From Candidatus Multivoradales bacterium (lineage in GTDB: Bacteria > Acidobacteriota > Thermoanaerobaculia > Multivoradales > J023): a stretch of 64,000 nt of DNA. A program made the translations under genes and the position numbers. Positions 7,783 through 50,422 of this stretch are shown piece after piece. The DNA lies in the NCBI GenBank assembly GCA_965248925.1, contig CBDFLE010000006.1, positions 2,464,001 to 2,528,000 of the forward strand, written 5' to 3'. Each line of letters starts with the position of its first letter. The first letter of the stretch is position 1. A model generated the notes under the pieces. It was not told the origin of the DNA, searched no databases, and worked only from the letters and a program-made list of their open reading frames with translations.

Positions 7783-7976
7783 GGGGTCCTTAATTGCAAA
7801 GCGGGCAAAGCTGGAGAGACCGGCGATCAAGGGCCGCGTCGAGCCGCCTCAAAGGCAGTGAAACCACGTCATCCCAAGCCCTGTCACGAGCACCTACCCT
7901 ACCAGCAGGCGCCGTTTCGAGCGAGTCTCCATCCCCTTGCTGAGCAAGGAAGTGGGTGATGTTCACTGGCTTGGAC

Positions 7977-8294: not shown

Positions 8295-8511
8295 GACGCC
8301 TCAGATCCCGGACGACTCCTTCAAAGCTAAGCTGTGGCCCATCGCGCCTCTCCCGGAAAGCCTCAAGATCTTCCGCGTCCTCGCCGAGGGAGAGTTCCAC
8401 CGCTTCGTTGACAAGCTCCGAGACCGACCGCTCGGTTGAGGCCGCCTTGAGCCGCAGAGCGCGGTGGAGTTCCGGGTCAAAGTAAACAGTGGCGCGCTTT
8501 GATGCTTGCAT
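8281..8511 (-). CDS. Ribbon-helix-helix antitoxin (cognate of the RelE toxin)
   Basis: KRATVYFDPELHRALRLKAA..SVSELVNEAV; overlaps the toxin start. Confidence 0.85.
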   Translation of the reverse strand: MQASKRATVYFDPELHRALRLKAASTERSVSELVNEAVELSLGEDAEDLEAFRERRDGPQLSFEGVVRDLRRRGRI

Positions 8512-8615
8512 GGACCAAGGCTAGCCCCAAGTCGTTAAAACGTCAAGACGTCACTCCCTTTGGACTACCTGCCCGCAGCTTGACCCCAGTCGTTCTAGCC
8601 TTCCATACTCGATCC

Positions 8616-9278
8616 ATGACGGACTCCGCCTGGGAACAGCCAGAAGCGGTCGCGAAGTTTGCCGGTCGCGATCCTGACCACCGCCTGCTCGAGCTGATCG
8701 AGGACTACGAGGACCCCAGCACCGTGCGGGTGCTGGACCTGGGATGCGCCGGTGGGCGCAACAGCGAGTTGCTGGCGCGTTGTGGTTTCGATCTAACGGC
8801 ACTCGATGCATCACGAGCCATGGTGGCCCACAGCCGAGAGAGGCTGGCGCCAGTCCTCGACGATGAACAGGCGCAGCGTCGGGTGCGCCATGGACGGATG
8901 GACGACCTGGGCGAGTTGGCGGATGGTTCGTTCGATCTGGTGGTCGCCCTGGGAGTCTATCACTGTGCTGAGAGCCGTGCCGAGTGGCAGTCTGCGCTCA
9001 GCGAAACCGCTCGGGTGCTGCGCAACGACGGCCATCTGCTTCTGGCGTTGTTCACTCCCGAAACCGATTTGACCGGCGATGGGATCCGCCCTGTGCCGGG
9101 GCAACCCGACGTCTATGAGGGGTTTCCTTCGGGACGATCGGTGTTGGTCGATCAGCAAGCCCTTGATGCTGAGATGGCGCGTCTCGGGCTGAAACCAGCA
9201 GTGCCCAGCCGCACGGTGCGAGTCGAGATGGATTCCGGACGCCGGGTGACGGTCAACGCCCTTTATCGTCGAGCGTAG
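8616..9278 (+). CDS. Class I SAM-dependent methyltransferase
   Basis: VLDLGCAGGRN motif I, SFDLVV, RVLRNDG. Confidence 0.85.
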   Translation: MTDSAWEQPEAVAKFAGRDPDHRLLELIEDYEDPSTVRVLDLGCAGGRNSELLARCGFDLTALDASRAMVAHSRERLAPVLDDEQAQRRVRHGRMDDLGELADGSFDLVVALGVYHCAESRAEWQSALSETARVLRNDGHLLLALFTPETDLTGDGIRPVPGQPDVYEGFPSGRSVLVDQQALDAEMARLGLKPAVPSRTVRVEMDSGRRVTVNALYRRA

Positions 9279-37938: not shown

Positions 37939-38112
37939 AGGGTAGTAGAGGGATGGCGAGCGGAACTGGGCCTTGGAAGTGACGAACGGTTAGCGCCTAG
38001 AATCGCGGCAGCGCACCAAACTGTAGATGATCAATGACTCGCCCGAGTATACCCTTACGGGGTGACGGCCGAACAGCGACCGCCGAACGGTAGTGGCCTA
38101 AGACTGTGTGGG

Positions 38113-38410
38113 CGGTGTGAGACTTGTCGATGAGAATCCATCGCGCTCCGCAGTTGCAGCCACGAAGCGTTCGAGTGAACACGCTGTTTGATTCCCCACA
38201 ACACCCTAGAAGGGTTACAAGTGCTTCAGTCTCCCTGCAAGAAGACCGCCGGGCACCCTGTGGTTATGCCCCGTTCCCTAGCGTGAACGGTGGGGCTGTT
38301 TCCGGCCACGCCTCACGAGGTTGCCCACATGAGACGAACCCGCGGGTTTCGCGAGTCTCCTCATCAGGAGCCCTCCTTTCAGCGCTGCGCCCCTCGATTG
38401 GGGCACTAAG
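38113..38410 (-). ncRNA. Candidate structured non-coding RNA in the outer element
   Basis: No convincing ORF; run of stems whose G-U pairs form only on the minus strand. Confidence 0.3.
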
Positions 38411-38450
38411 ACTCTACTACGGCCCACCGAGCGCGCTATTCATCCTCCTG

Positions 38451-38524
38451 TAGAATTCTCCGCACCACCACGGCGCGGCTAGGTTAGCCACCAAGCACCG
38501 GGCACCCGCCCCGGCCGTCGCGCC
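38451..38524 (+). repeat. ~70-bp conserved motif, copy C (also at 44083-44151 and 45624-45692)
   Basis: TAGAATTCTC..GGCGCGGCTAGGT..CCGGG..CCGG..GTCGCGCC. Confidence 0.65.
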
Positions 38525-38552
38525 CCTCAACCGGGAGCATCACGGGGGATGC

Positions 38553-38961
38553 TTGGCGAATCGGAACAAGTACAGCGAGCACGAGCTGTGGCAGGTCGTC
38601 GAGTTGATCCATAAAGGCTTCGACATCCGAGCTGCTGCGCGTGAGGTCGGCGGCTGGAATGGCCAACAAGGGAGACCTCAAGAGATACGAACGGCGTCTC
38701 CGCAAGGCGTACTATCGGCGGAGAGCTACCGGCTCACTCTCCCTAGAAGACCCTAAGTGGTCTTCTCAAGAAGAGGCTATTCGGAGATCGTTCAGAGCCA
38801 ATGACAGCCATCGTACAAAGTGTCTTGAACAGATGGCGAGAGCTGAACGATGGCGAGAGCTGAACGTGAAGCGGCTGAGATCGGCTTCTCGCTGGAAGGC
38901 GCAGAAAAAATTCTGTAGCAATCTCTATACCGAGAGCTTGAGTCCTACACCGATCTCGTAA
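38553..38961 (+). pseudogene. Possible frameshifted small HTH DNA-binding protein
   Basis: YSEHELWQVVELIHKGFDIRAAAREVG (psq-like HTH) continues plausibly as GDLKRYERRLRKAY in another frame near 38660. Confidence 0.3.
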
Positions 38962-39129
38962 ACGCAAGCCCAAGCGGCACAGCAGAGACGATGTTGAACA
39001 GCGAGGCGTCTGCCGAAGATGGCATCCGCCGACTTCGTGAGGCTCGTGTGGGGGCCCGCTAGCCTCACAGAGAAGATTCGGATCCTGTCGGCCTACCTCG
39101 AAGCCAAGCGCTACGTAGGTGCTGTTAGC

Positions 39130-39249
39130 GGGAAAAATTCCTCCACAGCTAATGGGGAACAAGTTCCAGGGCTTGGAGAAGAATCAGCCTAAGCCGGGGA
39201 ACAATTCCTGTTTGCCGGGGACAAATCCCGGCATCGCCAGGGACAAGCC
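39130..39249 (+). repeat. Array of ~6 GGG(G)A(A)CAA-NTCC-like motifs at ~21-bp spacing (iteron/operator-like)
   Basis: Copies at about 39130, 39154, 39175, 39196, 39217 and 39239. Confidence 0.55.
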
Positions 39250-39321
39250 TGTTGAGGTAGCCGCGCAAGCTCTTTGATTACAGCAATTAGGTTTTACAGG
39301 GCATCTTGGTGTGGCGTAGAA

Positions 39322-39360
39322 CTAGAAAGCCGTAGCGATTAGAGCGCTACGGCTTTCTAG
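39322..39360. repeat. Perfect 16-bp inverted repeat (CTAGAAAGCCGTAGCG / 7-nt loop)
   Basis: Directly visible. Confidence 0.9.
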
Positions 39361-39570
39361 AACCCAGGTGCAAGCACCGCACGAGGTTCCAGCAGGAATA
39401 GCCTACTCTGTGGCGGAGCTGTGCCGCAACCCCAAGAGGGTGAAGCATGGCCGACTGGAAGAGCATCAGAACGCGGCAACGGTGGCGGGTCTGGTGGCCC
39501 TTGCTGCCGCGTTCCTGGATACCGCCCGGCGGCAGTTGCCGGGTCCGACCCCCGCCTCTGTCGCCAGCCC

Positions 39571-39744
39571 TCACTCCTCAGCAGAATCGATCTTCAGCGC
39601 CCGCGCTTTCTCCAGGGCCGCCGAGATCATGTAGCTCGTCCGGTTGAGCCCGAGTATCTCGGCCGCTTCGTCAATCCGCTCGATCTGCTCGTCTGAGCAC
39701 CAGAGCTGCACTTTCTTTGTCTTCTTGGCTTTCTCTCCACTCAT
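39571..39744 (-). CDS. Ribbon-helix-helix (DUF1778/CopG-like) regulator of the outer element, 57 aa, not in the ORF track
   Basis: MSGEKAKKTKKVQLWCSDEQIERIDEAAEILGLNRTSYMISAALEKARALKIDSAEE; TTGACC-18-TAATCT promoter 7 nt before ATG. Confidence 0.8.
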   Translation of the reverse strand: MSGEKAKKTKKVQLWCSDEQIERIDEAAEILGLNRTSYMISAALEKARALKIDSAEE

Positions 39745-39840
39745 GAGCACCAGATTACTCCCAAGAGACTCCTGGGGTCAACCTGAATTACTCCTATTCG
39801 GAGTATAAACCTGCCTAAATGGTTGAGAGATACTCCTGCG
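39745..39840. promoter_or_regulatory. Divergent rhh/tnp promoter region with 5 TACTCC/GGAGTA-type boxes
   Basis: ATTACTCC, GACTCC, ATTACTCC, GGAGTAT, ATACTCC. Confidence 0.6.
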
Positions 39841-40228
39841 AGAAGTCAATTAGGATCGTGGAACGGCAGCCCACAACCCAATCGGCGATCGAGCCGCCTA
39901 CCTGCCCGCACTGCGGCGCGGGTTGGGTGCGTTAGGGCAAAGATCGGGACGGGCACCAGCGCTACAAGTGCATTTGAATCTCCGGATGCGCATGCGCCGC
40001 TTGACTCGGTTGACTGCCTGCACCGACGGAAACCGACCACCGATTCCGATTGAAAGTGACCAGTGATTCCAACGGAATCTGACCATCGATTCCGATCGAA
40101 AGTGACCACTTTTCCGGGTCGATCGGAATGGGTGGTCAGATTGGATCGGAATCCTGGCCACGGCGGAGTTCGACGGTAGCGCGCTCCTCACAATTGGGGT
40201 ATTCCAGCCTCCTTGAAAGGAGGATTGG

Positions 40229-41803
40229 ATGCCGAGAGTGAGGACATCGATGCGCAAGATACGCGAGGTACTGAGACTGAAATGGCAGCATGGCCTGTCG
40301 CACCGCCAGATCGGACGGTCGGTTCGGCTGGGCCACGGGACGGTGTGCAGCTACCTGCTGCGAGCCAAGGTTGAAGGCCTGAGCTGGGAGCAAGTAGCAG
40401 CTTTGAGCGACGCTGAGCTGGAGCAACGCCTGTACCCTCGGCCGCAGCCGCTTCGGAGGGGTGGTCAGCGAGCCTTGCCCGACTGGACCAAGGTGCATGG
40501 CGAGCTGAAGAAGAAGTGCGTAACCCTGTCGCTGCTGTGGCAGGAGTACCGGGAGGACCATCCTGACGGCTACGGTCTCAGCCGCTTCTGTCAGCTGTAC
40601 CGGATCTGGGAAGGGCGCCTGGATGTGTGCCTGCGCCAAGCCTACCGGGCGGGCGAGAAGCTGTTCGTCGACTATGCCGGACAGACCGTGAGGGTGATCG
40701 ACCCGGCGACTGGCAAAGAGCGCGAAGCGCAGATCTTCGTGGCGGTGCTGGGGGCGAGCAACTACACCTATGCCGAAGCAACGTGGAGCCAGGGCCTGGA
40801 GGACTGGATCGGCTCTCATGTGCGGACCTTCGCGGCTCTGGGCGGGGTGAGCGAGCTGGTGGTGCCGGACAATCTGAAGAGCGGCGTGACCAGCCCGTGC
40901 CGCTACGAGCCGGAGATCAATCGCACCTACGCGGAGTTGGCCGAGCACTACGGCGTGGCGGTGGTGCCGGCGCGGGTGAGGAAGCCCCAAGACAAGGCGA
41001 AGGTCGAAAACGGTGTATTGCAAGTGGAGCGCTGGATTCTGGCCCGGCTGCGTAACCAGCAGTTCTTCAGCCTGCGAGAGCTCAACGAGAGCATCGCGAA
41101 GCTTCTGGTCGAGCTTAACGACCGTCCGCTGAAGGTGTTGGGCGTCTCGCGCCGAGCGCTGTTCGAGCAGGTCGATCGTCCTGCTCTGGGTGCTTTGCCG
41201 CTCCAGCCCTACGAGCTTGCCGAATGGAAGAAGGTACGCGTTGCCCCGGACTACCACGTCGAGTTCGAGGGCCACTATTACAGTGTGCCGTACCAGCTGA
41301 TCAAGAAGCAGCTCGATCTGCGGGCGACGGCGCAACTGGTGGAGGTGCTCGATCGCGGCAAGCGTGTGGCTGCTCATCGTCGCAATCGGTGTCGGGGTCG
41401 GCACACGACCCAGAGCGAGCACATGCCCAAAGCGCACCAGGCGTACCTGGAGTGGACACCGACACGGCTGATCAGCTGGGCGGCGAAAACAGGCCAGGCG
41501 ACGGCCGAACTGGTGGAGACCATCATGCTTAACCGCTCCCATCCTCAGCACGGCTTTCGCTCGTGTCTGGGGCTGATGCGCCTGGGCAAGACCTATGGTG
41601 CCAATCGTTTGGAGGCTGCGTGCCGCCGCGCGCTCGCCATTCACGGCCTGTCCTACAAGAGCGTGAAGTCGATCCTGAAGAGCGGCCTGGACCAGCAAGC
41701 AGCGCCCGAGCCCACCGAAGTGACGGCGCCGATCGAGCACCGCAACGTCCGCGGCGCCAGCTACTACAGTGCCGCGCGCCGCGAGGAGACGCCGCCATGC
41801 TGA
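40229..41803 (+). CDS. istA: IS21 transposase IstA
   Basis: AGEKLFVDYAG, VPDNLKSGV, PQDKAKVENGV. Confidence 0.95.
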   Translation: MPRVRTSMRKIREVLRLKWQHGLSHRQIGRSVRLGHGTVCSYLLRAKVEGLSWEQVAALSDAELEQRLYPRPQPLRRGGQRALPDWTKVHGELKKKCVTLSLLWQEYREDHPDGYGLSRFCQLYRIWEGRLDVCLRQAYRAGEKLFVDYAGQTVRVIDPATGKEREAQIFVAVLGASNYTYAEATWSQGLEDWIGSHVRTFAALGGVSELVVPDNLKSGVTSPCRYEPEINRTYAELAEHYGVAVVPARVRKPQDKAKVENGVLQVERWILARLRNQQFFSLRELNESIAKLLVELNDRPLKVLGVSRRALFEQVDRPALGALPLQPYELAEWKKVRVAPDYHVEFEGHYYSVPYQLIKKQLDLRATAQLVEVLDRGKRVAAHRRNRCRGRHTTQSEHMPKAHQAYLEWTPTRLISWAAKTGQATAELVETIMLNRSHPQHGFRSCLGLMRLGKTYGANRLEAACRRALAIHGLSYKSVKSILKSGLDQQAAPEPTEVTAPIEHRNVRGASYYSAARREETPPC

Positions 41804-42561
41804 GGCACGCGACGCTCGATCAACTCGCCGCGCTCAAGCTCCACGGTATGGCCAAAGCCTTTGAGGAGCAGCTGTCGATGGTCGATGTCTCAGAGCTCTC
41901 CTTCGAAGAGCGCCTCGGGCTGCTGGTCGAGCGCGAAGCGACCGAGCGATCCAGCCGCCGCTTGATAGCGCGGTTGCGAAAAGCCAAGCTGCGCGAGCAG
42001 GCGGCCATCGAAGACATCGACTGGCGAGCCAAGAGGGGCCTGGACAAAGGCCAGATCCTGCGCCTGGCCTCGTGCCAGTGGATCGCCGAGCATCTCAACG
42101 TGCTGATCACCGGCAAGGCCGGGGTGGGCAAGACCTTTCTCGCCTGCGCCTTCGCGCACAAGGCATGTCGGGAGGGTTACACCGCTTTGTACCTGCGGGT
42201 GCCGAGGCTGTTTCGCCAGCTCGCCATCGCGCGGGGTGATGGTAGCTACGAGAAGCTGCTCAAGAGCTATGCTCGCACAGACCTGCTCATCCTCGACGAC
42301 TGGGGGCTGGCGCCGATCGGGGCCAGCGAGCGGCGCGACCTGCTCGAGATTCTTGAGGACCGCTACGGCAACCGCTCCACGCTGGTGACCTCCCAGCTAC
42401 CGGTTGAGAGCTGGTACGAGGTCATCGGCGATCCGACCTTGGCCGACGCCATCCTCGATCGCATTGTCCACGGCGCCTACAAGCTCGCGGTGGACGGTGA
42501 CTCCATGCGGGCGAAGAGAGCCGGCGGTATTCGCAAGGCCGCCCAGCGAGAGGCAAGGTGA
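41797..42561 (+). CDS. istB: IS21 AAA+ helper ATPase IstB
   Basis: GKAGVGKT, LLILDDWG, TSQLP..W, ADAILDRIVH. Confidence 0.95.
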   Translation: MLRHATLDQLAALKLHGMAKAFEEQLSMVDVSELSFEERLGLLVEREATERSSRRLIARLRKAKLREQAAIEDIDWRAKRGLDKGQILRLASCQWIAEHLNVLITGKAGVGKTFLACAFAHKACREGYTALYLRVPRLFRQLAIARGDGSYEKLLKSYARTDLLILDDWGLAPIGASERRDLLEILEDRYGNRSTLVTSQLPVESWYEVIGDPTLADAILDRIVHGAYKLAVDGDSMRAKRAGGIRKAAQREAR

Positions 42562-43094
42562 GATCCAAGAGCATGCTGAAGCGATCGCCGATCCGGACCC
42601 ATCAGCGGGCCTGCGGCCCGATCCGGACCCGACCCAAGATGGACTGTGGAAGCTGCCGCGGTTGTGGAAATCGCTCTGCGATTCCCACAACCGCTTGGAA
42701 AACGCCCCCCGGCCACCCACCCGCGTTTCCCACAGCTACGCACAGCCCCGACGACGGGTTATTTGAATACAATCAACCAAGAAGAAGAGCCGGAAGGAGG
42801 GCTCCAGCTACAGCGAAAGTGGACACTTACAACTGAGGAGAGCGCGAGCGTCGCTTCGCTCCGACAAGTGGTCGGTTTCGATCGGAATGGCTGGTCAGTT
42901 TCGTCGGAATAGGCAGTTGACGAACGGATTCAGCAAGAAATGGGCGAACCTCCGGGCAGCTGTGGCGCTGGAGATGGCGCACCACAACCTGTGCCGGATT
43001 CACGGTGCGATCCACTGCACCCCCGCGATGGCTGCCGGGATCTGCAAAGGCATCTGGTCGGTGGGCGATCTGGTGACGGCGTGAAGCCGCGAAG

Positions 43095-43463
43095 CTAAAC
43101 GGAGCTGCTCGGGAAAATGTACTTTGCTACCACCACGAATAGAGCAATGATGTTCACCGTTGTAGTGGCGAGCGCGGCTATTAGTACGGGGTCTGAAAGG
43201 TAGAACCCGAGGCAGTTGCCGAAGCCCTGAAAAAACAGCAGCACGACCATCGCAAGGAGCCAAAAACATAGGAGGCCATATAGCAGTGCTGCATATAGCT
43301 TCCGGTGGCCGATGTTCTGGGTGAGTTCGTCAACCAGCGCTTGTCGGTGATCGCGATCTAGATCGTCCTCCCACTCGCGGGTCTTCGCATCTGGCTGCGC
43401 CGCGGGCTCGGTTCGGTCTTCCTGCCCAATGTCCTTAATTGAGGGGCGACGATCCTCAGTCAT
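43095..43463 (-). CDS. Two-TM membrane protein, putative PanT toxin
   Basis: Overlaps the Panacea gene 3' end; two hydrophobic helices. Confidence 0.6.
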   Translation of the reverse strand: MTEDRRPSIKDIGQEDRTEPAAQPDAKTREWEDDLDRDHRQALVDELTQNIGHRKLYAALLYGLLCFWLLAMVVLLFFQGFGNCLGFYLSDPVLIAALATTTVNIIALFVVVAKYIFPSSSV

Positions 43464-43944
43464 GGCGTACTAGCTCGCGGAAGTGTCTCGCTATCAACTG
43501 ATTGTTGATCCGCTTGTTGTTGCGGCCCCGCCCTTCTTTCCAGGTCTGATCCCACGGAGTCCCGTCCTGGTGTGTCAGGTTGGAGAGCTGAACGCCTGTG
43601 TACTTGCTGTAAGCCTCCAAGACCTTGTCGAGCAACTCTTGGACTTGATTGTCGTCGTAGGCAACACTTGGGACAGAGATCTCGCCAAATCGACGAACGA
43701 TCGCCTCATTCTCGACAACAGGAGCATTGCCGTGCCTCTTGAACGCTTGGTAAAGACTCGGGATAACTGGCCCGTACTTCCACGCCTGGACGGGCTCGTC
43801 AATTAGGGCGATATCGAAGATTGCCAGGTGCCAGCCATGCGCTATGTAGACGAGCTTCTGGATCTTGAGATGATCCAAGACCTTCCCGGACATATTGGCC
43901 TTGTCGATGAAGTAGTTGGCTACAGCGAGTGCTGGATACTGCAT
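43456..43944 (-). CDS. Panacea (DUF4065/SocA/GepA) antitoxin
   Basis: VANYFI, LKIQKLVYIAHGW, AWKYGPV, LSNLTHQDGTPW. Confidence 0.92.
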   Translation of the reverse strand: MQYPALAVANYFIDKANMSGKVLDHLKIQKLVYIAHGWHLAIFDIALIDEPVQAWKYGPVIPSLYQAFKRHGNAPVVENEAIVRRFGEISVPSVAYDDNQVQELLDKVLEAYSKYTGVQLSNLTHQDGTPWDQTWKEGRGRNNKRINNQLIARHFRELVRHD

Positions 43945-44148
43945 GCTTACGCCTCCTTTACGCCATCCTATAACGGCGATTCGCTGATGGCAATGGGGAA
44001 AGATCGCGCCATTACGTGAGGTACCCTAGCAGCCTTGTCAAGTGCGGGCCGTGGGATGAGCGGGCCGATCGGACAGCGAACCGGCGCGGCGGGCCGAGGT
44101 ACGGGGAGCCCGGCGTTCGGCGGCCAGACCTAGCCGCACCTGAGAATT

Positions 44149-44529
44149 CTACCAGCTACCGCGCCGGGACAGCGAAACCCAGCGTCCAGCCGATCCCGCG
44201 ATCACATGATCCACAAGCTCGATGCCGATCAGCTCGGCGGCTCGCGCCATTCGGCGGGTGAAGATCAAGTCTTCCTTGCTCGGCGACGGGTCGCCGCTGG
44301 GGTGGGTGTGGAACAGCAGCAGCGCCGTAGCCTGGTGGTGTAGCGCCTCAGCGAAGACCGGCCGCGGGTCGGCTGCTGCTCGGATCGCCGTCCCGCGGAA
44401 GATCTCGCGTTCAGCGATCAGCCAATGCCGGCAGTCGAGGAACAGCACGCCCACCACTTCCTGGCCGAGCCCACCGTAGTGCAGCAGCGCGTATTCGGCC
44501 ACAGTGCCCGGAACATCGAGCAGCCTACC
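44149..44529 (-). pseudogene. radC: radC (JAB) of the outer element, 3' half
   Basis: QEVVGVLFLD..HTHPSGDPSPSKED..LVDHVI; starts exactly at the inner element's TSD. Confidence 0.9.
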
Positions 44530-44698
44530 GGTGGTGTCCTAACAGTGTGTTGGTCCGATAGGGGCGGGTGAAAGGCAGGCTGGCGGGTGGTACGTTCGCC
44601 GCGAAGCCGAGGCGGTGAACGTCTCCACCTTACCACCCAGCGGCTCTGACGGCGGCGGTAACCGACGCCAGAGCCTAGCCACGCAGAGGACATAGCCA

Positions 44699-44989
44699 AT
44701 GCGAGACCGCCGTAAGTGTACCGTCTACGACGTGCAGAGAGAGCTTGCTGCTCTCGTTCCAAACCTACAGACCGTTGACCTCCGACTAGCCCGGATCGCC
44801 CGCGCGGTTCAGCCATCGCCACATCTCCTACCCGTAGAGCTTCGCGGCCGGGTCGAAGCCGTGCGCTCCGATTTGATCGGCGACGCCATCGCGACGCTGG
44901 CCGAGCTTTCCCAGCTCACTGAAGACGACGCGGCGCGCCACCGGGTGCAGCTCCTCGACCTGGCTTTGAGGCTGGCCGATGCAAAGTAA
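44699..44989 (+). CDS. Conserved 96-aa helical hypothetical protein upstream of radC (orf96)
   Basis: Close paralog at 49904-50197; AGAGG RBS; overlaps the radC start. Confidence 0.8.
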   Translation: MRDRRKCTVYDVQRELAALVPNLQTVDLRLARIARAVQPSPHLLPVELRGRVEAVRSDLIGDAIATLAELSQLTEDDAARHRVQLLDLALRLADAK

Positions 44990-45626
44990 CCTACGGCCGC
45001 GCGACCGGCTGCTACGCCACGGCGCAGCCGGCCTGACGGATGCTGAGCTGCTGGCGGTGCTATTGAGGTACCGTTCGGCAGAGAAGGCGGCAGAGCGTCT
45101 CCTGTCGGCTGCTGGTGGTCTGAGAGGGCTACTGCGCGCCGCGCGGCCAGTCTTGTGCCGCAACGGTGCCACTGAGGGCAGAGCAGCTGTGGTACTGGCC
45201 GCTGGCGAGCTTATGCGGCGGCTGGCAGAGCATCAGCTCGACCGCCGCAGGCTGCTCGATCAGCCGATAGCCCTGGCCGAGTATGTAGCAATGAAGTACA
45301 GCGAGCTTGGCCAAGAGGTTCTTGGCGCGATCTACCTCGATTGCCGTCACCGGCTGATTGCCGAGCGAGAGATCTTCCGCGGCACAGCTACCCGAGCAGC
45401 GGCTGAGCCTGGGCCGATCTTGCGAGAAGCGCTCCAGCACCACGCCGCGAAGCTGATCATTTTTCACACCCACCCCAGCGGCGACCCATCGCCGAGCAAC
45501 GAGGATCTGCTCTTCACCGAGAGGATGGCGAAGGCCAGCGAATTGATTGGCGTCAAGCTGGTGGACCACTTGATTGTTGGAGCGCTCGGCCGCTGGGTGT
45601 CCCTGTCCCGGCGTGGTAGCTGGTAG
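44979..45626 (+). CDS. radC: RadC-family JAB/MPN-domain protein
   Basis: RPRDRLL..GLTDAELLAVLL N-terminus; QE..HTHPSGDPSPSNED JAMM motif; LVDHLIVG. Confidence 0.92.
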   Translation: MQSNLRPRDRLLRHGAAGLTDAELLAVLLRYRSAEKAAERLLSAAGGLRGLLRAARPVLCRNGATEGRAAVVLAAGELMRRLAEHQLDRRRLLDQPIALAEYVAMKYSELGQEVLGAIYLDCRHRLIAEREIFRGTATRAAAEPGPILREALQHHAAKLIIFHTHPSGDPSPSNEDLLFTERMAKASELIGVKLVDHLIVGALGRWVSLSRRGSW

Positions 45627-45722
45627 GATTCTCGGGCGCGGCTAGGTCTGGCCGCCGAACGCCGGGCACCCCGTTGCTCGGCCCGCCGCGCCATCATCCC
45701 TCCTCTCAGATCGTCTAGATTC

Positions 45723-46787
45723 TCAATTCTTCGGTTTCGCTGTTGGCATCATCATCGTATCTCCATATCTTGGCAATGCGCGGTTGATCCGGTTTTCGAA
45801 ATCTTCCCAATCATTGTCTTCACACGTCTTCATGATGACGATCAAGTTCGTGAGCTGATCTCGCAACTCTTGAATTCCGAAATCTGGTGAAAGGCTCTGA
45901 AACAGCTTGCGCGACCTGCGCCCTTTTGGATTCTTAGGGGTCAACTTCTTTAGCGCCTTCAAAACGCCGGGTGCCAGACGCGAGTAAACAATGTTGTTGG
46001 TAACGTGGCCAATCCACTGAGGCCGCTTCCCGCCAATGCTTGGGTACGACAGGCCCTTGAGTCGAAACACCTGTTTATAGAATTCGTCTGGGAATCGCTT
46101 TGTCCACTTCGAGTACTCGTCCGTTAGGTACTTGTCGAGGATAGCCTGAAGAGCTAGCCGATCTCGAACGTCCTGGTATCCGGTCGCTTCATCAACGAGG
46201 GCGTCGATACCAGTCTTGGCGAGTGATCTGATTAGTGCCTCTGCCTTCTGCGCCTTGCCGAGTTGCTGTTCTTGAAGCTCTCCGGCTGCGCGAGCTTCAA
46301 GCCACACTTCGCACACGTCAACCAAGATGGAGGCTTCGTACCCCTTGACTATCTTCTTTCCATGAACGTATTCAATAGGATTCAGGGGCCCGGCCATTAA
46401 ATGGCTGGGAATAAAAGACTTAAGCCTAGCAGGAGCCAGAAACAACGGGACAAGGGCCCGGCCATCCGATGCCGCTTTGAGCCGCTTCGAAGCGCCGCTA
46501 CGACCACCCAGAATGGCTCTTGTAATCCCGTGTTCAGACAGCACACGGCGGACCGTATTTTCGTTTCCGCTCTCGCCTTCGATAACAGCGCATGGCAATA
46601 TTGTTCCACCGAGGTCAATCGATGCCGCGTAGTTCGAGAGAACGCGCGGCAAACTATCTGGAGGGTCCTCTTGGTCCCATCTTGCGCGTGCAGCATTCGA
46701 AGCCTGCGCAGATCTTTCTTCTGGTGACATCTTCTCCGCCCTCGCGTATCCACCGATAGCCCTTCCCGTTGGTCCTTCAGTTGGCAT
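45723..46787 (-). CDS. P63C-domain protein (phage Mx8 p63-like)
   Basis: GGYARA..ASNAARARW, GIDALVDEATGYQ..R, WTKRFPDEFY, TNNIVYSRLAPGVL; GGAG RBS before ATG 46787. Confidence 0.85.
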   Translation of the reverse strand: MPTEGPTGRAIGGYARAEKMSPEERSAQASNAARARWDQEDPPDSLPRVLSNYAASIDLGGTILPCAVIEGESGNENTVRRVLSEHGITRAILGGRSGASKRLKAASDGRALVPLFLAPARLKSFIPSHLMAGPLNPIEYVHGKKIVKGYEASILVDVCEVWLEARAAGELQEQQLGKAQKAEALIRSLAKTGIDALVDEATGYQDVRDRLALQAILDKYLTDEYSKWTKRFPDEFYKQVFRLKGLSYPSIGGKRPQWIGHVTNNIVYSRLAPGVLKALKKLTPKNPKGRRSRKLFQSLSPDFGIQELRDQLTNLIVIMKTCEDNDWEDFENRINRALPRYGDTMMMPTAKPKN

Positions 46788-46886
46788 TTGCAAGCACTCC
46801 ATTGGAAATTATACGTGCATCTTACGATAGTTTCCCAAAAATGCAAGCATTTCTACAAACTATCCCGCCTGATGCCTGCATTATTC

Positions 46887-47876
46887 TTATGCCGCCACCA
46901 GATCACCGACCGACCAGATCCCTTTGCAGAGGTTAGCCGCCATCGCTGGCGTGCAGCGGATCGCGCCGTGGATGCGGCAGAAGTTGTGGTGCGCCATCTC
47001 AAGCGCTACGGCTGCCCGCAGGTTCGCCCACTTCTTGGAGAACCCGTTGGTCAACCGCGTCAGACGGCGCATCCTCATGCGGAGGTTGAGATTCTGTCGC
47101 TCGATGTGCGACGTGCAGATCTGCTTGCGATCAGGCTTGCCGTGGATGGCCCGCTTCTCGGAGGCTATTATCGTCGCCGGTGAGTACCGGCGCTGGTCCT
47201 CTGAAGAGCCTTTGCCGTAGTGCTTGACTACCTGGCCATACTGAACGCGGGTGCCGAGCTGGTGAACGATGGGATCAGCATAGCTGTCGAGCCCGTCCGT
47301 GCTGAGCTGGAATTCGCCCTTCGTCGCGCGGTCGAGCTTGCCGATGAAGAACGAGGTATCGAGCGCCGTGCGGTGGCCCAGGTGATGAGCCAAGATCAGC
47401 TTGCTCTCGCGCTCGATCGCCACGTAGGTCCAGGCATCGCCGATCTCTGGATCGCTGAGACTCTTGAATCTCTTCGTCTTGGCCTTCATCCCGACGAATC
47501 CCCAGATTTCGTCAGCCTGCACGTCCTTGACCTCGACATCTCGCACGATCCGCGCGAGCAGGCTTTCGCACTTGCCACCGACTACGCGGAGCAGGCGGCA
47601 GATCGTGTCCCGATGGACGCCAGTCACGCGCTCAGCAGCGCGAATGCTCATGCCTTCGACCAGCAGCGAGACAACCGTGGTGGCCTTCTCCACCGGTAGC
47701 CGCATCGTGCCCAGCGGACGACGCGGGCGAACGGCGAAGGTCTTGCGGCAGCTCGCGCCTTTGCACTTGTAGCGCTGGTGCCCGTCGCGGTCTTTGCCCC
47801 AACGCACGAAGCCTGCCCCGCAATGGGGACAAGTCGTCGGCTCGATCGCCGGTTGGGGTTGGGGCCGCGTCGTCAT
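46887..47876 (-). CDS. IS1-family DDE transposase (zinc ribbon-HTH-DDE), intact
   Basis: CPHC..RYKC..C zinc ribbon, EGMSIRAAERVTGV HTH, ADEIWGFV, STDG, TSHIERQNL. Confidence 0.92.
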   Translation of the reverse strand: MTTRPQPQPAIEPTTCPHCGAGFVRWGKDRDGHQRYKCKGASCRKTFAVRPRRPLGTMRLPVEKATTVVSLLVEGMSIRAAERVTGVHRDTICRLLRVVGGKCESLLARIVRDVEVKDVQADEIWGFVGMKAKTKRFKSLSDPEIGDAWTYVAIERESKLILAHHLGHRTALDTSFFIGKLDRATKGEFQLSTDGLDSYADPIVHQLGTRVQYGQVVKHYGKGSSEDQRRYSPATIIASEKRAIHGKPDRKQICTSHIERQNLNLRMRMRRLTRLTNGFSKKWANLRAAVALEMAHHNFCRIHGAIRCTPAMAANLCKGIWSVGDLVAA

Positions 47877-47950
47877 GTGATGAGTATATCCAATGGATAT
47901 CCATAGTGTCAAGGGTTGACTTGGATATTTTTTGGATATATTCTGGATAC
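47877..47950. promoter_or_regulatory. Back-to-back sigma70 promoters for tnp and rhh with GGATA/TATCC boxes
   Basis: Minus strand TTGACA-18-TATACT-6-ATG; plus strand TTGACT-17-TATTCT-6-ATG; repeated GGATA(T/C) boxes in the spacers. Confidence 0.75.
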
Positions 47951-48136
47951 ATGGCTGACACCGAACAACCTGACCGGCAGCACTCGAAATCGAGGCTGCT
48001 TCGCTTCAAGCCGGAACACGACGCGCTGATATGCGAAGCTGCTGAAAACTCAGGGCTTAGCGTTACGAGCTGGATTCGTGAGCGGCTGATTCGCTTTGCA
48101 CGACAAGAGATAGAGGAGGCGGGCCGTCGCGCGTAA
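47951..48136 (+). CDS. Ribbon-helix-helix regulator of the inner element (61 aa)
   Basis: SKSRLLRFKPEHDALICEAAENSGLSVTSWIRERL. Confidence 0.8.
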   Translation: MADTEQPDRQHSKSRLLRFKPEHDALICEAAENSGLSVTSWIRERLIRFARQEIEEAGRRA

Positions 48137-48217
48137 CGGCGGCCCGCCTGGGCTATATCTGGGACCGTGGTAGCAGTTGCCACAGGATGAGTAGAGACTG
48201 CCGGCGATCCCAGAACG

Positions 48218-48241
48218 TGCCCATTGACATGGGCATTTTTC
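48218..48241 (+). terminator. Intrinsic terminator after rhh
   Basis: TGCCCAT-TGAC-ATGGGCA-TTTTT. Confidence 0.65.
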
Positions 48242-48288
48242 TAACTTTCGCGCTTGACTACGGAAGGCTTTCGCCGTAACGTCAAACG

Positions 48289-48416
48289 CAGCAACCCCTT
48301 ACGGCTCGCTTTTGAGCAGCCCTCCGGGTGACTAGCTTGAGAGTCCTGCAAGACAAAGCTCAAGCCAGTATTGTTTGCTAGATCAGGGCCGGCCACGCGC
48401 CGGCCCTTTCGTTTTT
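48289..48416 (+). ncRNA. Candidate ~130-nt small RNA
   Basis: TTGACT(48254)-17-TAACGT promoter, internal stems, terminator AGGGCCGGC/GCCGGCCCT-TTCGTTTTT; no RBS-led ORF. Confidence 0.5.
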
Positions 48417-48422
48417 GCTGTC

Positions 48423-48992
48423 TTAGTTGGAGCCTCCCAGATTGTGAAAGCGCGCTACTGCTACCGGCGATAACGGGCCATGGTCTTCCGCTTGTTTTTC
48501 GCCGCCTCCCCCCGTATCAACGGAGCCATAAACTTCGGCTACCGTCTCGGGTTCAAACATGTCTGGTCGGCCGTATACGAAAGGCGCCATACTCCCAGCA
48601 GGTGCCCGGCGCCTTTCCAGCTTCCTAGCCTTGGCCAGTTTCCTTGTCGAAACGCTCATGGTCTGACGTGACAGGCTAGTGCCATCATCTCTCAACAGGC
48701 GCATCAATTCAGCTTGAGTGACCGGCCTCTCAAGGCGCGGCAGATAGGCCTCAATGAGTTCTAGAGATGTCGCCCGTCTTGCTGGTCTCTCGGGGCGTGA
48801 TTGCCGCTCGATTACCGGTTTCTCAACGGCTCCCTGCTTCAAGGAAGCCGAGGTCTGCTCGGGCTGGGCTGTTGAGCTACTCCGGGAAAGGCCGAGGAGA
48901 GCATCGATGTGGGCCAGCATTGATGTGGCCTCGCGCTTCACAGACTCCCAGTGTCCCTTCAGCTCGCCTAGGCTCTTGTTCTTCAAGTCCAT
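48423..48992 (-). CDS. Hypothetical protein: N-terminal helix, linker, winged-helix-like domain
   Basis: LELIEAYL..PVTQAELMRLL..LSRQTMSVSTRKLAKARKLER..VY; AAAGGTG RBS. Confidence 0.6.
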   Translation of the reverse strand: MDLKNKSLGELKGHWESVKREATSMLAHIDALLGLSRSSSTAQPEQTSASLKQGAVEKPVIERQSRPERPARRATSLELIEAYLPRLERPVTQAELMRLLRDDGTSLSRQTMSVSTRKLAKARKLERRRAPAGSMAPFVYGRPDMFEPETVAEVYGSVDTGGGGEKQAEDHGPLSPVAVARFHNLGGSN

Positions 48993-49438
48993 TTGCTCGG
49001 CACCTTTTCTAGACAGGCGCCCAAAGAGGGCTGCCTGGTTGCGGCAGACGGGAACCTTGAGCCACCAATCATGCCTGTGTCCAGCCTGCTAGCCATCGGG
49101 CGCGGGCCGGCTCGTGCGATAAGTTGTATTTTGACGCCATCGGGATAGGTTGTCAACCGCGCCGCGGAATGATTGACACGCTGTCAACCCAGTTACCAGA
49201 CGGCCGCCATCCGCCGAGTGCCATGCGCAGCGCGAGGGCTAAGAGCTATCAGATGCTAAGATGACTCGTCGCGGCCCGGAATGGCTGGTCAAGCCAAGGC
49301 ATCGTTAGGCGCGGCAAGACGCTGCGCAGGCACCAGGAGAGGCGGCTTCGGCCGCCTTTCGGCGATCAGGACTTCTTTTGCAAATCGGCCAGGAGGCGCT
49401 ATCCAGGCGCCACTGAAGCCAAAGGAGCGCTTGGGGGA

Positions 49439-49582
49439 ATGAGCTTTCTTAGTAGCTTTGGTAAGGAGTTCAGCTCTTCGATGGACGCCATAGGCGGGTT
49501 GGTCGGCAGCTGCTTACCGTGGGCCGCAATATTGTTAGCAGCGCTGCTGGTCTTCGGCTGGGTCATGAAGTTCTTGTTCTAG
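49439..49582 (+). CDS. 47-aa single-TM peptide, not in the ORF track
   Basis: MSFLSSFGKEFSSSMDAIGGLVGSCLPWAAILLAALLVFGWVMKFLF; purine-rich RBS-like sequence upstream. Confidence 0.5.
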   Translation: MSFLSSFGKEFSSSMDAIGGLVGSCLPWAAILLAALLVFGWVMKFLF

Positions 49583-49646
49583 ATAATCTAGGGCTCCACC
49601 CGGTCGAGAAGGCGCCAACACTGAGTTAGGACACTACCAGCCTACC

Positions 49647-49917
49647 GGCGATCCAGCCGGTAGGCTGCCAACCGCCGCACAAGCTCACCAGCGGCCAGGA
49701 GGACGGCAGCTCTGCCGTCTGTAGCACTGTTCCGCCGTAGCGCCGGCCGTTCGCTGCGCAGCAGCCCTTGCAACCCACCAGCAGCCGTCAAGAGCCGCTC
49801 TGCCGCGTTCTCAGCAGCTCGGCGGCGCAGCAACACCGACAACAGCTCAGCGTCCGTCAGACCAGCCGCGCCATGCCGTAGCAACCGGGCCCGCGGCGCA
49901 AGCTCAGCCCTCGGAAT
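49647..49917 (-). pseudogene. radC: radC of the outer element, 5' half (start codon ATT)
   Basis: LLRHGAAGLTDAELLSVLL..LAAYRLDR aligns with the N-terminus of 44979-45626; ends at the inner element's TSD. Confidence 0.88.
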
Positions 49918-50197
49918 CGGCCAGCCGTAGCGACAGGTCGAGCAGCTGCACTCGATGGCACAGCGCGTCCTCTTCGGTCAGTTGCGACAGCTCTTCTAGC
50001 GTCGCGATGGCGTCGCCGAGCAGATCGACGCGCACCGCCTCCGCTCGGCCACGGAGCTCGACCGGCAAAAGGTGCGGGGATGGCTGGATCGCCTTAGCGA
50101 TCCTGGCTAGACGAAGGTCAACGGTCTGTAGGTTGGGGACGAGAGCAGCAAGCTCTCTCTGCACGTTGTAGACGGTACACTTCCGGCGGTCGCGCAT
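49904..50197 (-). CDS. orf96 paralog of the outer element (97 aa)
   Basis: MRDRRKCTVYNVQRELAALVPNLQTVDLRLARIA.., nearly identical to 44699-44989. Confidence 0.8.
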   Translation of the reverse strand: MRDRRKCTVYNVQRELAALVPNLQTVDLRLARIAKAIQPSPHLLPVELRGRAEAVRVDLLGDAIATLEELSQLTEEDALCHRVQLLDLSLRLADSEG

Positions 50198-50422
50198 TGG
50201 GCTGTGTCCTCTGCGTGGCTAGGCTTCGGCGACGGTGACAGCCGTCGTCGAGGTCGCTGGTGGTAGGGTGGAGGGCGTTCGCTGCCCGGGCTTCGCGGCA
50301 AACGTACTACCCGCCCGCCTGCCGCTCACCCGCCCCTATCGGACCAACACACTGTCAGGACACCACCCGCCGAACAGCAACCAGCACCCGGCGAGCTGGG
50401 CAGGCGCGGATTTGGAGACCTC

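What the first reader, a model, noticed from the sequence alone, without database searches (positions are those of the whole stretch)
38089..50367. A family of ~5-kb IS1-type cargo transposons with a fixed orf96-radC / tnp-rhh backbone and two variable cargo slots
Seen: two elements (38089-50367 and 44530-49638), each with 24-bp GGT(A/G)GTG TIRs and an exact 8-bp TSD. Read from the GGTGGTG end, both have the order IR > leader > orf96 > radC > 70-bp motif > slot 1 > tnp (reverse) > rhh (divergent from tnp) > slot 2 > IR. Slot 1 holds a Panacea+TM pair in the outer element and P63C in the inner one. Slot 2 holds a repeat array, HTH remnant and structured region (outer) or an sRNA candidate, wHTH-like protein and TM peptide (inner). 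Known: IS1 ends start with GGT and give 8-9-bp TSDs, and some IS1 (ISMhu11-group) members carry passenger genes. Inference: a conserved JAB/RadC module plus RHH control inside an IS1 unit transposon with exchangeable TA/regulatory cargo is not an architecture I recognise, and may be an undescribed element family.
Basis: partly seen in the sequence, partly recalled or inferred. Interest (0 to 1): 0.88.

Follow-up and report, generated by a model that had tools for sequence, protein, structure and literature searches.

The report
Nested IS1-family cargo-carrying insertion sequences
Two jumping genes of the IS1 family that carry extra passenger genes sit one inside the other (with a third, unrelated jumping gene inside the outer one), and they belong to a large, little-described group of such cargo-carrying elements in soil Acidobacteriota.

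Summary
The core observation holds. The outer element (38089-50367) and the inner one (44530-49638) each have 24-bp GGT(A/G)GTG inverted ends and an exact 8-bp target duplication.

Corrections:
- The outer transposase is a dead remnant. It has a stop codon and a ~660-bp internal deletion, and a 2901-bp IS21-family element (40015-42915, 6-bp duplication) is inserted in it.
- The "70-bp motif" and the outer "structured region" are copies of one structured motif. It resembles Rfam int-alpA but scores below that family's threshold.

In 21 of 23 same-family genomes the two flanking genes are adjacent, so the 12.3 kb is an insertion.

The transposase is IS1-family, intact in the inner copy, and has thousands of relatives. 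Of 80 related genomic loci, 38 showed matching ends. Of those, 27 had an exact 8-bp duplication. Element lengths were 2.3-8.1 kb, so all carry passengers: P63C, HTH-M78, Panacea, methylases, TIR, ATPases.

The orf96-radC module is not a family backbone. It was absent from 160 loci with up to 8-kb flanks and present in only two loci of one other genus. The RHH-transposase pair marks the nearest sub-clade.

Verdict: real transporter ISs, a new variant of a known kind. The "fixed backbone" is specific to this lineage.

The parts
38081..38088 (.). Left copy of the outer element's 8-bp target duplication (CGCCGAAC)
38089..50367 (.). Outer IS1-family transporter IS, non-autonomous. It spans 12279 bp including two later insertions, about 4255 bp of its own DNA
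   Evidence: The flanking genes are adjacent in 21 of 23 relatives
38089..38112 (+). Outer terminal inverted repeat, GGTAGTG end
38113..39570 (.). Outer slot 2: orphan DNA with no relatives found. It holds one copy of the structured motif and a 17-bp x2.4 tandem repeat (38826-38866)
38466..38531 (+). Structured int-alpA-like motif, copy in outer slot 2, on the same strand as tnp and upstream of it. This is the usual position in relatives
   Evidence: Rfam RF02996 32.8 bits against gathering 35.8; model R1 54 bits
39571..39750 (-). Outer ribbon-helix-helix gene (59 aa), divergent from tnp
   Evidence: weak MobA/VapB-type matches. It clusters with the inner RHH by blastp
39751..39866 (.). Outer rhh-tnp intergenic region with iterated (T)ACTCC words, including TACTCC..GGAGTA. 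Candidate operator
   Evidence: read
39867..40014 (+). 5' remnant of the outer transposase: residues ~16-50, an in-frame TAG, a deletion junction near 39972-39976, then residues ~275-287
40015..42915 (+). IS21-family insertion sequence (IstA 40229-41803, IstB within 41563-42561). It has 23-bp terminal repeats and the 6-bp duplication GTTGAC at 40009-14 and 42916-21. About 25 copies more than 99% identical occur in this genome
   Evidence: Contig depth is about 20-fold that of the flanks
42916..43084 (+). 3' remnant of the outer transposase (residues ~287-341)
43095..43463 (-). 122-aa ORF with a hydrophobic C-terminal half, overlapping the end of the Panacea gene. Candidate toxin partner (outer slot 1)
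43456..43944 (-). SocA/Panacea-domain protein, 162 aa (outer slot 1)
   Evidence: Pfam PF13274 4.6e-20. NCBIfam SocA scores 115 bits, below its cut-off of 190
44076..44146 (-). Structured motif, copy just 3' of the outer radC
   Evidence: R1 78.3 bits; 92% identical to the inner copy
44149..44526 (-). 3' piece of the outer radC (matches residues 91-216 of the inner RadC, 70% identity)
44522..44529 (.). Left copy of the inner element's 8-bp target duplication (AGCCTACC). The right copy is at 49639-49646
44530..49638 (.). Inner IS1-family transporter IS, 5109 bp, with all parts intact. It is the only full copy in the genome
44530..44698 (+). Inner GGTGGTG inverted repeat (44530-44553) plus leader. 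It is 85-91% identical among the copies in this genome and absent from other genomes beyond the 24-25-bp repeat
44699..44989 (+). orf96: a three-helix protein with no known family, overlapping the radC start by 11 nt
44979..45626 (+). RadC-family JAB protein, 215 aa, with an intact HxH..S..D motif
   Evidence: Pfam RadC 2.3e-34; NCBIfam NF000642 181.6 bits against cut-off 180; invariant H163, H165 and D176
45629..45699 (+).
   Evidence: Rfam RF02996 27.2 bits, below gathering; R1 81.2 bits; covariation
45723..46802 (-). P63C-domain protein, 359 aa (inner slot 1)
   Evidence: Pfam 2.2e-28; phrog_2384 4.7e-99
46887..47912 (-). Intact single-ORF IS1-family transposase: Zn ribbon, HTH and DDE. The likely start is at 47876 (329-aa form on record)
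47877..47950 (.). Inner tnp-rhh intergenic region packed with TGGATAT words, including the palindrome ATGGATATCCAT and an 11-bp x2.6 tandem repeat. Candidate RHH operator and divergent promoters
47906..48136 (+). Inner ribbon-helix-helix gene (76-aa ORF, probable start at 47951)
   Evidence: Pfam HicB 2.9e-5, NikA-like, TacA1; relatives divergent from tnp in other genomes
48137..49614 (.). Inner slot 2: orphan DNA with a 189-aa ORF (48423-48992, minus strand) that matches no family
49615..49638 (-). Inner terminal inverted repeat, GGTAGTG end
49645..49911 (-). 5' piece of the outer radC (matches residues 2-90, 75% identity)
49904..50197 (-). Outer orf96 (97 aa, 86% identical to the inner one)
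50198..50367 (-). Outer leader and GGTGGTG terminal inverted repeat (50344-50367)
50368..50375 (.). Right copy of the outer element's 8-bp target duplication

Best explanation
The interval is a nest of three transposition events in the short intergenic region between two conserved, divergently transcribed genes.

Order of events:
1. An IS1-family transporter IS, about 4.9 kb when intact, inserted with an 8-bp duplication. This is the outer element.
2. Its transposase gene later decayed through a stop codon and a ~660-bp deletion.
3. A related, still intact 5.1-kb element inserted into the outer radC with its own 8-bp duplication. This is the inner element.
4. An IS21-family element that is very active in this genome inserted into the outer tnp remnant.

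Shown:
- The ends, the duplications and the nesting.
- An IS1-family transposase with its conserved acidic residues intact in the inner copy.
- The empty site, at the level of gene order, in relatives.
- A wide family of relatives with the same ends, the same duplication length and passenger genes.

Inferred mechanism:
- The single-ORF Zn-ribbon/HTH/DDE transposase binds the 24-bp GGTRGTG ends and inserts the whole unit with 8-bp staggered cuts.
- The divergent RHH protein binds the iterated words in the 74-bp tnp-rhh intergenic region (TGGATAT in the inner element, ACTCC in the outer one). It thereby represses both promoters and keeps transposition low.
- The passengers ride along. They are orf96-radC next to the GGTGGTG end, and then P63C or a Panacea-plus-membrane-ORF pair. 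They probably pay for the element's keep through addiction, defence or anti-defence functions.
- The int-alpA-like hairpin motif lies at the 3' end of the inward-reading passenger operon and faces the tnp core. It most likely ends or stabilises those transcripts and shields tnp from read-through.
- orf96-radC is a module captured by this lineage, not a part of the transposition machinery.
For: Anatomy in the window:
- Ends and duplications.
- The inner element splits the outer radC between residues 90 and 91 with no loss of sequence.
- IS21 limits come from 7 other copies, and the window copy has the GTTGAC duplication. About 25 copies are more than 99% identical.
- Independent contigs from 4 runs of one sample bridge the outer-left, IS21-left, outer/inner and inner-right plus outer-right junctions with 0 differences (table 8).

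Empty site:
- The left-flank (638 aa) and right-flank (479 aa) genes lie side by side in 21 of 23 same-family loci, each 4.2 kb or shorter.

Transposase:
- Pfam DDE_Tnp_IS1 scores 33.2 bits against a cut-off of 24.1.
- NCBIfam IS1 family scores 97.1 against 100, and the IS1/IS1595 Zn domain 38.1 against 28.
- At least 7936 protein clusters match at E<=1e-3, and sources name them 'IS1 family transposase'.
- D130, D134, E135, D206 and E271 are conserved across 24 sequences and present in the inner copy.

Family:
- 38 of 80 genomic loci have a matching GGTRGTG end pair. Of these, 27 have an 8/8 flanking repeat and 2 more have 7/8.
- Lengths are 2272-8084 bp against a ~1-kb tnp.
- Cargo tally over 150 mechanical ORFs of 36 elements: HTH_3 6, P63C 5, Peptidase_M78 4, methylase 2, DUF3800 2, plus TIR, AAA_21/15, Panacea, Mrr and DUF4145.

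RHH:
- An rhh relative divergent from tnp occurs in 16 of 80, 17 of 29 and 13 of 80 loci.
- The two RHH genes here differ, and so do the iterated words in their intergenic regions.

Motif:
- 6 of 15 pairs keep pairing through changes on both sides.
- Its only 4 hits in this genome are all in these elements.
- It recurs about 1.0-1.4 kb upstream of tnp in relatives.
Against: - No transposition, excision or empty-site molecule was observed, so activity of the inner copy is inferred from intactness only.
- There is only one intact copy in the genome.
- The NCBIfam IS1 model scores just under its cut-off (97.1 against 100).
- 42 of 80 related loci gave no end pair with my simple search. Many of those sit on short contigs or may have diverged ends.
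- My choice of the best end pair favoured pairs with a matching flank, although an 8/8 match by chance is about 1 in 65,000 per pair.
- The cargo ORFs were called mechanically in high-GC DNA, and 112 of 163 proteins clustered were singletons. Cargo counts are therefore rough.
- The roles of the RHH, of the intergenic words and of the motif are inferred from position only. The motif has no clear U-tract.
- The C5 fragment has two GGTGGTG-type ends but no duplication.
Confidence: 0.85

Rival explanations
1. orf96-radC and tnp-rhh form a true, conserved four-gene backbone of a distinct element family. In this view RadC is needed for the element's own movement or establishment, for example by processing DNA ends or host factors.
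For: - All four copies or fragments in this genome keep the leader, with orf96 and/or radC, next to the GGTGGTG end.
- Two loci of another genus in the same order have the same arrangement of rhh, tnp, a short slot and radC, at only 45-50% protein identity. One of them has a small ORF ahead of radC and matching ends.
- That suggests an old association.
Against: - radC and orf96 are absent from 80 of 80 genomic and 80 of 80 metagenomic loci with up to 8-kb flanks. These include the nearest transposase relatives at 55-62% identity.
- The third copy here lacks orf96.
- orf96-radC pairs occur without IS ends in 6 of the 16 loci of related genomes.
- Five further radC paralogues here sit behind a different 330-aa gene.
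- Elements without radC show perfect 8-bp duplications, so radC is not needed for transposition.
Confidence: 0.1
2. The shared layout is only common descent of a few copies within one genome, with slot differences made by unrelated deletions and insertions. On this view there are no 'exchangeable cargo slots' and no wider cargo-carrying family.
For: - All copies with orf96 or radC, bar two loci, are in this one genome.
- The copies are decayed in different ways: deletion, truncation, nested ISs.
Against: - 36 bounded relatives in other genomes carry different passengers between the same kind of ends.
- Copies here are only 75-87% identical in shared parts, yet their slots share no detectable similarity at all. 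That fits replacement better than decay.
- P63C and Panacea recur in other elements at other positions.
Confidence: 0.05

Closest known systems
IS1 family insertion sequences (classical IS1 of enterobacteria)
   Same: - DDE transposase matching the IS1 Pfam domain and, nearly, the NCBIfam IS1 model, with an N-terminal Zn ribbon.
- Ends beginning GGT..TG and an 8-bp target duplication.
- The C-terminal ..SH(I/V)ERQNL..R..RL.R..FSK.. stretch is conserved and lies in the part matched by PF03400.
   Different: - A single long ORF with no InsA/InsB frameshift arrangement.
- Elements of 2.3-8 kb with passenger genes, instead of about 0.77 kb.
- A separate divergent regulator gene (RHH, P63C or HTH-M78) in place of InsA.
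- The size and frameshift of IS1, and the GGnnnTG end consensus, are recalled, not taken from a call.
Transporter ISs (tIS) of the IS1595 and IS66 families; ISMhu11 subgroup of IS1
   Same: - An IS-like unit with one transposase, terminal inverted repeats, a target duplication and passenger genes inside the ends.
- IS1595 is described as related to IS1. I saw this only as the title of Siguier et al. 2009 in the reference list of PMC3129680.
   Different: [quoted passage not shown] These elements match IS1, and of the IS1595 models only the shared Zn domain.
A search for 'ISMhu11' found 0 papers, and no reference sequence was available for comparison.
Rfam RF02996 int-alpA RNA motif
   Same: The same three-way shape: an 8-bp closing stem around two small hairpins. 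It shares sequence words (GCGCGGCUAG, CCGGG..CCCGG) and is linked to mobile DNA.
   Different: - Scores are 32.8 and 27.2 bits, below the gathering score of 35.8.
- It is found here inside IS1-family elements of Acidobacteriota-type genomes, not beside integrase and alpA genes.
- What is published on int-alpA I did not read. It is recalled only, and the details are probably in supplements, which are closed.
Panacea-domain (SocA/PanA) toxin-antitoxin pairs
   Same: A Panacea-domain gene comes first and overlaps a small downstream gene on the same strand.
   Different: - The partner is an unassigned 122-aa ORF with a hydrophobic tail, and no toxin family matched.
- The NCBIfam SocA equivalog scores below its cut-off.
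- No test of toxicity was made.

Membership tests
IS1 family | Transposase matches the family's DDE domain model | tested here: met
   Pfam PF03400 scores 33.2 bits against cut-off 24.1, residues 264-294. Sources name the relatives 'IS1 family transposase'
IS1 family | Transposase reaches NCBIfam's whole-protein IS1 equivalog cut-off | tested here: inconclusive
   NF033558 scores 97.1 bits against cut-off 100, E 1.2e-27
IS1 family | N-terminal zinc-ribbon DNA-binding region | tested here: met
   NF050000 scores 38.1 bits against cut-off 28. C28, C31, C50 and C55 are conserved
IS1 family | Terminal inverted repeats starting GG...TG and an 8-9-bp target duplication (consensus recalled) | tested here: met
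   27 of 38 related end pairs have an exact 8-bp repeat
IS1 family (classical group) | Two overlapping ORFs joined by a programmed -1 frameshift (recalled) | tested here: not met
   One uninterrupted 329-341-aa ORF here and in relatives
ISMhu11 subgroup of IS1 | Similarity to ISMhu11-group transposases and ends | not testable with these tools
   ISfinder is not available, and 0 papers hold the name
IS1595 family | Match to IS1595 transposase models | tested here: not met
   Only the Zn domain shared by IS1 and IS1595 matched. No IS1595 DDE or family model was listed at E<=0.01
Transporter IS (tIS) | Passenger genes unrelated to transposition between the two ends of a single-transposase element | tested here: met
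   RadC, P63C and Panacea genes lie inside the ends. The same holds in 36 bounded relatives
IS21 family (the inserted third element) | IstA and IstB genes, multiple terminal repeats, short target duplication | tested here: met
   NF033546 scores 288.9 bits against cut-off 160. IstB_IS21 3.5e-76. 23-bp repeats. GTTGAC duplication
RadC family (JAB/JAMM) | Family model above cut-off and the HxH..S..D metal-binding motif | tested here: met
   NF000642 scores 181.6 bits against cut-off 180. FHTHPSGDPSPSNED is present, and H163, H165 and D176 are invariant in 7 sequences
Rfam int-alpA RNA (RF02996) | Score at or above the family's gathering threshold | tested here: not met
   32.8 and 27.2 bits against 35.8
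Panacea (SocA-like) toxin-antitoxin | Panacea domain protein with an adjacent toxin | tested here: inconclusive
   Domain met (PF13274, 73.1 bits against cut-off 25.7). The SocA equivalog scores 115 against 190. The partner is unassigned

The most novel reading that the evidence does not exclude
This IS1-family clade may be a modular cargo platform. In this reading, the int-alpA-like structured motifs, which sit at the inner edge of passenger blocks and sometimes flank the rhh-tnp core as an inverted pair, act as the joints at which passenger cassettes are swapped between elements. Alternatively they may act as an element-encoded RNA that couples passenger expression to transposition. That would make these elements a previously unrecognised vehicle for shuffling defence, anti-defence and addiction genes in Acidobacteriota.
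Probability: 0.1. Interest if true: 0.75.

Novelty: new variant of a known kind. Interest (0 to 1): 0.5.

Why it matters
Insertion sequences are usually treated as bare transposase genes. Passenger-carrying 'transporter ISs' are said in print to be limited to the IS1595 and IS66 families.

Here a large IS1-family clade has clean ends and 8-bp duplications. At least 7936 protein clusters are related to its transposase. It regularly carries regulators and genes typical of defence or addiction systems: TIR, Mrr, methylases, AAA_21 ATPases, Panacea, HTH-M78, P63C and RadC.

If this holds up, these elements are a simple and abundant route for moving such genes within and between soil Acidobacteriota and Planctomycetota genomes. 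Genome annotation that stops at 'IS1 family transposase' would miss both the element boundaries and the mobility of the neighbouring genes.

The paired differences between the RHH genes and their intergenic words also offer an easy model for how such elements keep transposition in check.

Tried and rejected
- orf96 binding to RadC: complex prediction returned 'no answer' (score 0.01, mark 0.32). This is neither for nor against binding.
- orf96 function: AlphaFold gave a confident three-helix bundle (pLDDT 93). Foldseek against the PDB gave no match at E<=0.001, only generic helical bundles. The ESM Atlas gave no usable hit.
- Empty site or excision in reads: the 4 runs found (one sample, one study, probably the source of the assembly) are kept as contigs. 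No contig joined across the inner, outer or IS21 element. The one joint listed (44116 to 45678, depth 3, side 25) lies between two copies of the motif and is too weak to count. Contigs cannot show rare variants, so this says nothing about mobility.
- Loose ends at 44529 in X2 and X3. Their last letters resemble the flank of the third genomic copy, so I took them for that copy and not for a new insertion. This was not checked further.
- A 15-nt match between the IS21 end and inner slot 2 (49277-49291). No longer IS21 similarity exists there, so I treated it as chance.
- Slot 2 contents: tblastx of both slot 2 regions against all loci and the genome found nothing convincing.
- PADLOC on ten passenger proteins (six of the window, three of the third copy, one of L242): only weak JAB matches for RadC and one weak PDC-M32A match in the third copy.
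- Target duplication of the radC-bearing element in L242: I could not find one.
- Literature: 'ISMhu11' gave 0 papers. 'IS1 family' + 'passenger genes' + 'insertion sequences' gave 2 papers, neither on this topic. 'IS1 family' + cargo + 'defense systems' gave 3 papers, none relevant by listing. In PMC3469429 on Acidobacteria mobile elements, a find for IS1, IS1595 and passenger gave 0 occurrences. 'int-alpA' gave 2 papers, listing only. 'RadC' + 'insertion sequence' + transposase + JAB gave 7 papers, of which I read only passages of the TnCentral preprint. I therefore found no paper in this library that describes the clade. ISfinder, TnPedia and paper supplements were not available.

Full report
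**What is at the coordinates**

Repeat finding and direct reading confirm both elements.
- The outer element runs from 38089 to 50367. Its 24-bp inverted ends match at 18 of 24 positions, and CGCCGAAC is repeated on both sides.
- The inner element runs from 44530 to 49638. Its ends match at 20 of 24 positions, and AGCCTACC is repeated on both sides.
- The long inverted matches show that the left part of the inner element (leader, orf96, radC, motif; 44530-45692) is homologous, in reverse, to 50367-49646 continued at 44526-44083.
- The inner element therefore sits inside the outer radC. By tblastn the two outer radC pieces match residues 2-90 and 91-216 of the inner RadC, so nothing was lost at the insertion.

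**Gene content**

From, the inner element holds:
- orf96, which matches no family;
- a RadC-family JAB protein;
- a P63C-domain protein;
- a 341-aa ORF that matches the IS1 transposase domain and the IS1/IS1595 Zn ribbon;
- a small ribbon-helix-helix (RHH) gene divergent from the transposase;
- 1.5 kb of orphan DNA.

The outer element holds an orf96 that is 86% identical to the inner one, the split radC, a Panacea-domain gene overlapping a 122-aa ORF with a hydrophobic tail, a different RHH gene, and orphan DNA.

The outer transposase is a wreck.
- Only residues ~16-50 and ~275-342 remain.
- Reading the DNA shows a TAG stop where the inner protein has tryptophan, and a deletion junction near 39972-39976.
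- A 2901-bp IS21-family element lies at 40015-42915. I set its limits by comparing seven other copies. The window copy has the 6-bp repeat GTTGAC on both sides.
- The left flank of that insertion still encodes the same C-terminal transposase stretch that continues on the right. The IS21 insertion and the 660-bp deletion are therefore separate events.
- The genome holds about 25 copies of this IS21 at more than 99% identity, one of them 100% identical to the window copy. Contig depth over it is about 20-fold that of the flanks.
- The 23-bp x3.5 array at 40029-40109 is this element's terminal repeat set.

**It is an insertion**

The genes flanking the outer element are a 638-aa protein on the left and a 479-aa protein on the right, transcribed divergently. 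They lie side by side in 21 of 23 loci from other genomes of the same family, each locus 4.2 kb or shorter. Contigs from four runs of one sample bridge all the junctions without differences. The sample is probably the assembly's own, so this checks the assembly but is not independent biology.

**Other copies in the same genome**

From:
- A third copy at C6:~132230-135331 has one GGTGGTG end, the leader (91%), no orf96, radC (86% protein identity), the motif, three unrelated slot-1 ORFs, and only the C-terminal half of tnp, which carries a stop.
- A 1.4-kb fragment at C5:1618153-1619568 has two GGTGGTG-type ends, the leader, orf96, the first 25 codons of radC and a pentapeptide-repeat ORF. It has no flanking duplication.
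- The inner element is therefore the only intact copy.

**The wider family**

- The transposase has at least 7936 related protein clusters, the nearest at 65% identity. Sources call them IS1 family transposases.
- In 80 loci from named genome records, the titles are mostly Acidobacteriota, including Thermoanaerobaculia, Blastocatellia, Pyrinomonadaceae, Bryobacterales and Terracidiphilus. Some are Gemmataceae and other Planctomycetota, and one is titled Deltaproteobacteria.
- A simple search found a matching GGTRGTG end pair around the transposase in 38 of those 80 loci.
- Of the 38, 27 have an exact 8-bp flanking repeat, two have 7 of 8 and one has 6 of 8.
- Lengths are 2272-8084 bp, and one locus shows nesting again (L076).
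- Every bounded element is therefore at least twice the size of its transposase gene.
- A Pfam tally of 150 mechanically called ORFs from 36 elements found HTH_3 (6), P63C (5), Peptidase_M78 (4), N6/N4 methylase (2), DUF3800 (2) and SDH protease (2). Single cases were TIR, AAA_21/AAA_15, Panacea, DUF4145, Mrr and others. RadC was not found.
- The gene divergent from tnp varies. It is P63C in 5 to 6 elements and a 366-385-aa HTH_3-plus-M78 protein in 5. It is an RHH of the inner type in 3 of the 36 bounded elements. The RHH type is present in 16 of 80, 17 of 29 and 13 of 80 loci overall, mostly those with the most similar transposases.
- In same-order genomes the transposase was found in 47 of 150. 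In the window's own family it was found in only 2 of 21, and those matches were weak.

**Is orf96-radC a backbone?**

- radC and orf96 were found within up to 8 kb of the transposase in 0 of 80 genomic loci and 0 of 80 metagenomic loci. Many metagenomic contigs are short.
- The same-order genomes gave 29 tnp-match loci. I widened the flanks of 26 of them and fetched three further tnp places.
- Two loci, both of one other genus, have radC beside tnp. L234 is a 3.2-kb contig.
- L242 shows the order end, rhh, tnp, a 166-aa ORF, radC, a 120-aa ORF, end. It lies between two arrays of regularly repeated sequence that look like CRISPR arrays.
- Protein identity to the window is only 45-50%, so the association is either old or has arisen twice.
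- orf96 relatives (34-48% identity) occur in 13 of 23 same-family genomes. In 6 of the 16 loci fetched from those genomes radC follows directly, and no IS ends lie within the ~1.5 kb fetched on either side.
- Five other radC paralogues in this genome follow a different 330-aa gene in a five-copy repeat.
- I conclude that orf96-radC is a pre-existing two-gene module captured as a passenger.

**The 70-bp motif**

- The stretch just 3' of radC is conserved in all three radC-bearing copies here (92-95%). It also occurs in outer slot 2 and in other genomes.
- Rfam's nearest family is int-alpA, at 32.8 and 27.2 bits against a gathering score of 35.8.
- An alignment of 18 copies folds into an 8-bp stem enclosing two hairpins. 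Six of 15 pairs keep pairing through changes on both sides.
- A covariance model found only the four known copies in this genome, though only 150 of 7640 first-look candidates were scored.
- It found 7 of 80 genomic loci, two of them new, and 23 hits in 21 of 72 further loci, about half of them new places.
- The usual place is 1.0-1.4 kb upstream of tnp on the tnp strand.
- The outer element, L218 and L231 have a second, inverted copy on the other side of tnp.
- In L007 the motif follows a DUF3800 gene that reads inward from the end, just as it follows radC here.
- The position fits a transcript-end or insulator element facing the tnp core. This is inference.

**Regulation**

- The 74 bp between the likely tnp start (47876) and the likely rhh start (47951) hold at least five TGGATAT words. 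These include the palindrome ATGGATATCCAT and an 11-bp x2.6 tandem repeat.
- The outer element has a different RHH, and its intergenic region holds iterated (T)ACTCC words with an inverted pair.
- Matched changes of protein and words fit an RHH repressor with its operator. This is untested.

**Comparison with what is known, and novelty**

- By domain models, ends and duplication length, these are IS1-family elements of a single-ORF type.
- Passenger-carrying ISs are a known concept, seen in passages of PMC3129680. The TnCentral preprint says they are presently restricted to IS1595 and IS66 (passage).
- That ISfinder lists an IS1 subgroup (ISMhu11) reaching about 4.6 kb is recalled, not checked.
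- My searches found no paper describing this clade, its passengers or its motif.
- I rate it a new variant of a known kind.

Noticed in passing
window 40015-42915 and about 25 other places in G000: An IS21-family element of 2901 bp is present in about 25 copies at more than 99% identity. One copy is 100% identical to the window copy. It is evidently in a current burst of transposition, with 5-7-bp duplications.
   Followed up: partly
G000 C6:1176444, C6:781573, C6:4480916, C6:3021740, C5:272532: Five copies of a repeat unit in which a 330-aa ORF (beginning VSHQSPIQLADLRRAGLL..) is directly followed by a 241-aa radC paralogue, about 60% identical to the IS-borne RadC. This is probably another multi-copy mobile element.
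   Followed up: no
L242 5974-7430 and 10828-12369 (G079:C24): The radC-bearing IS1-type element of another genus lies between two arrays of regularly repeated sequence. All six frames read as repeated peptides, which looks like two CRISPR arrays with different repeats. The IS may therefore have inserted into or between CRISPR arrays.
   Followed up: no
L006 3931-4066 (G000 C5:~1617931-1618066) and at least 25 other sites: A ~135-bp dispersed repeat at about 80% identity is scattered over the genome. It is MITE- or REP-like, and one copy lies about 90 bp from the C5 fragment of the IS1-type element.
   Followed up: no
G000 C5:1618153-1619568 (L006 4154-5569): A 1.4-kb transposase-less unit is bounded by two GGTGGTG-type ends, both with leader sequence. 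It carries orf96, a radC stub and a pentapeptide-repeat ORF, and has no target duplication. It may be a cassette-like derivative or a recombination product.
   Followed up: partly
L015, L016, L019, L021, L036, L040, L041 left ends: Small ~80-100-aa ORFs next to the left end of several related elements share the N-terminal ~40 residues of the P63C proteins (the stretch with GG.ARA..S.EER). This short module appears to occur on its own as well as fused to P63C.
   Followed up: no
L076 5088-10778 with 5913-8970 inside: A second case of one IS1-type cargo element nested in another, in a Pyrinomonadaceae record. Self-nesting may be common in this family.
   Followed up: no
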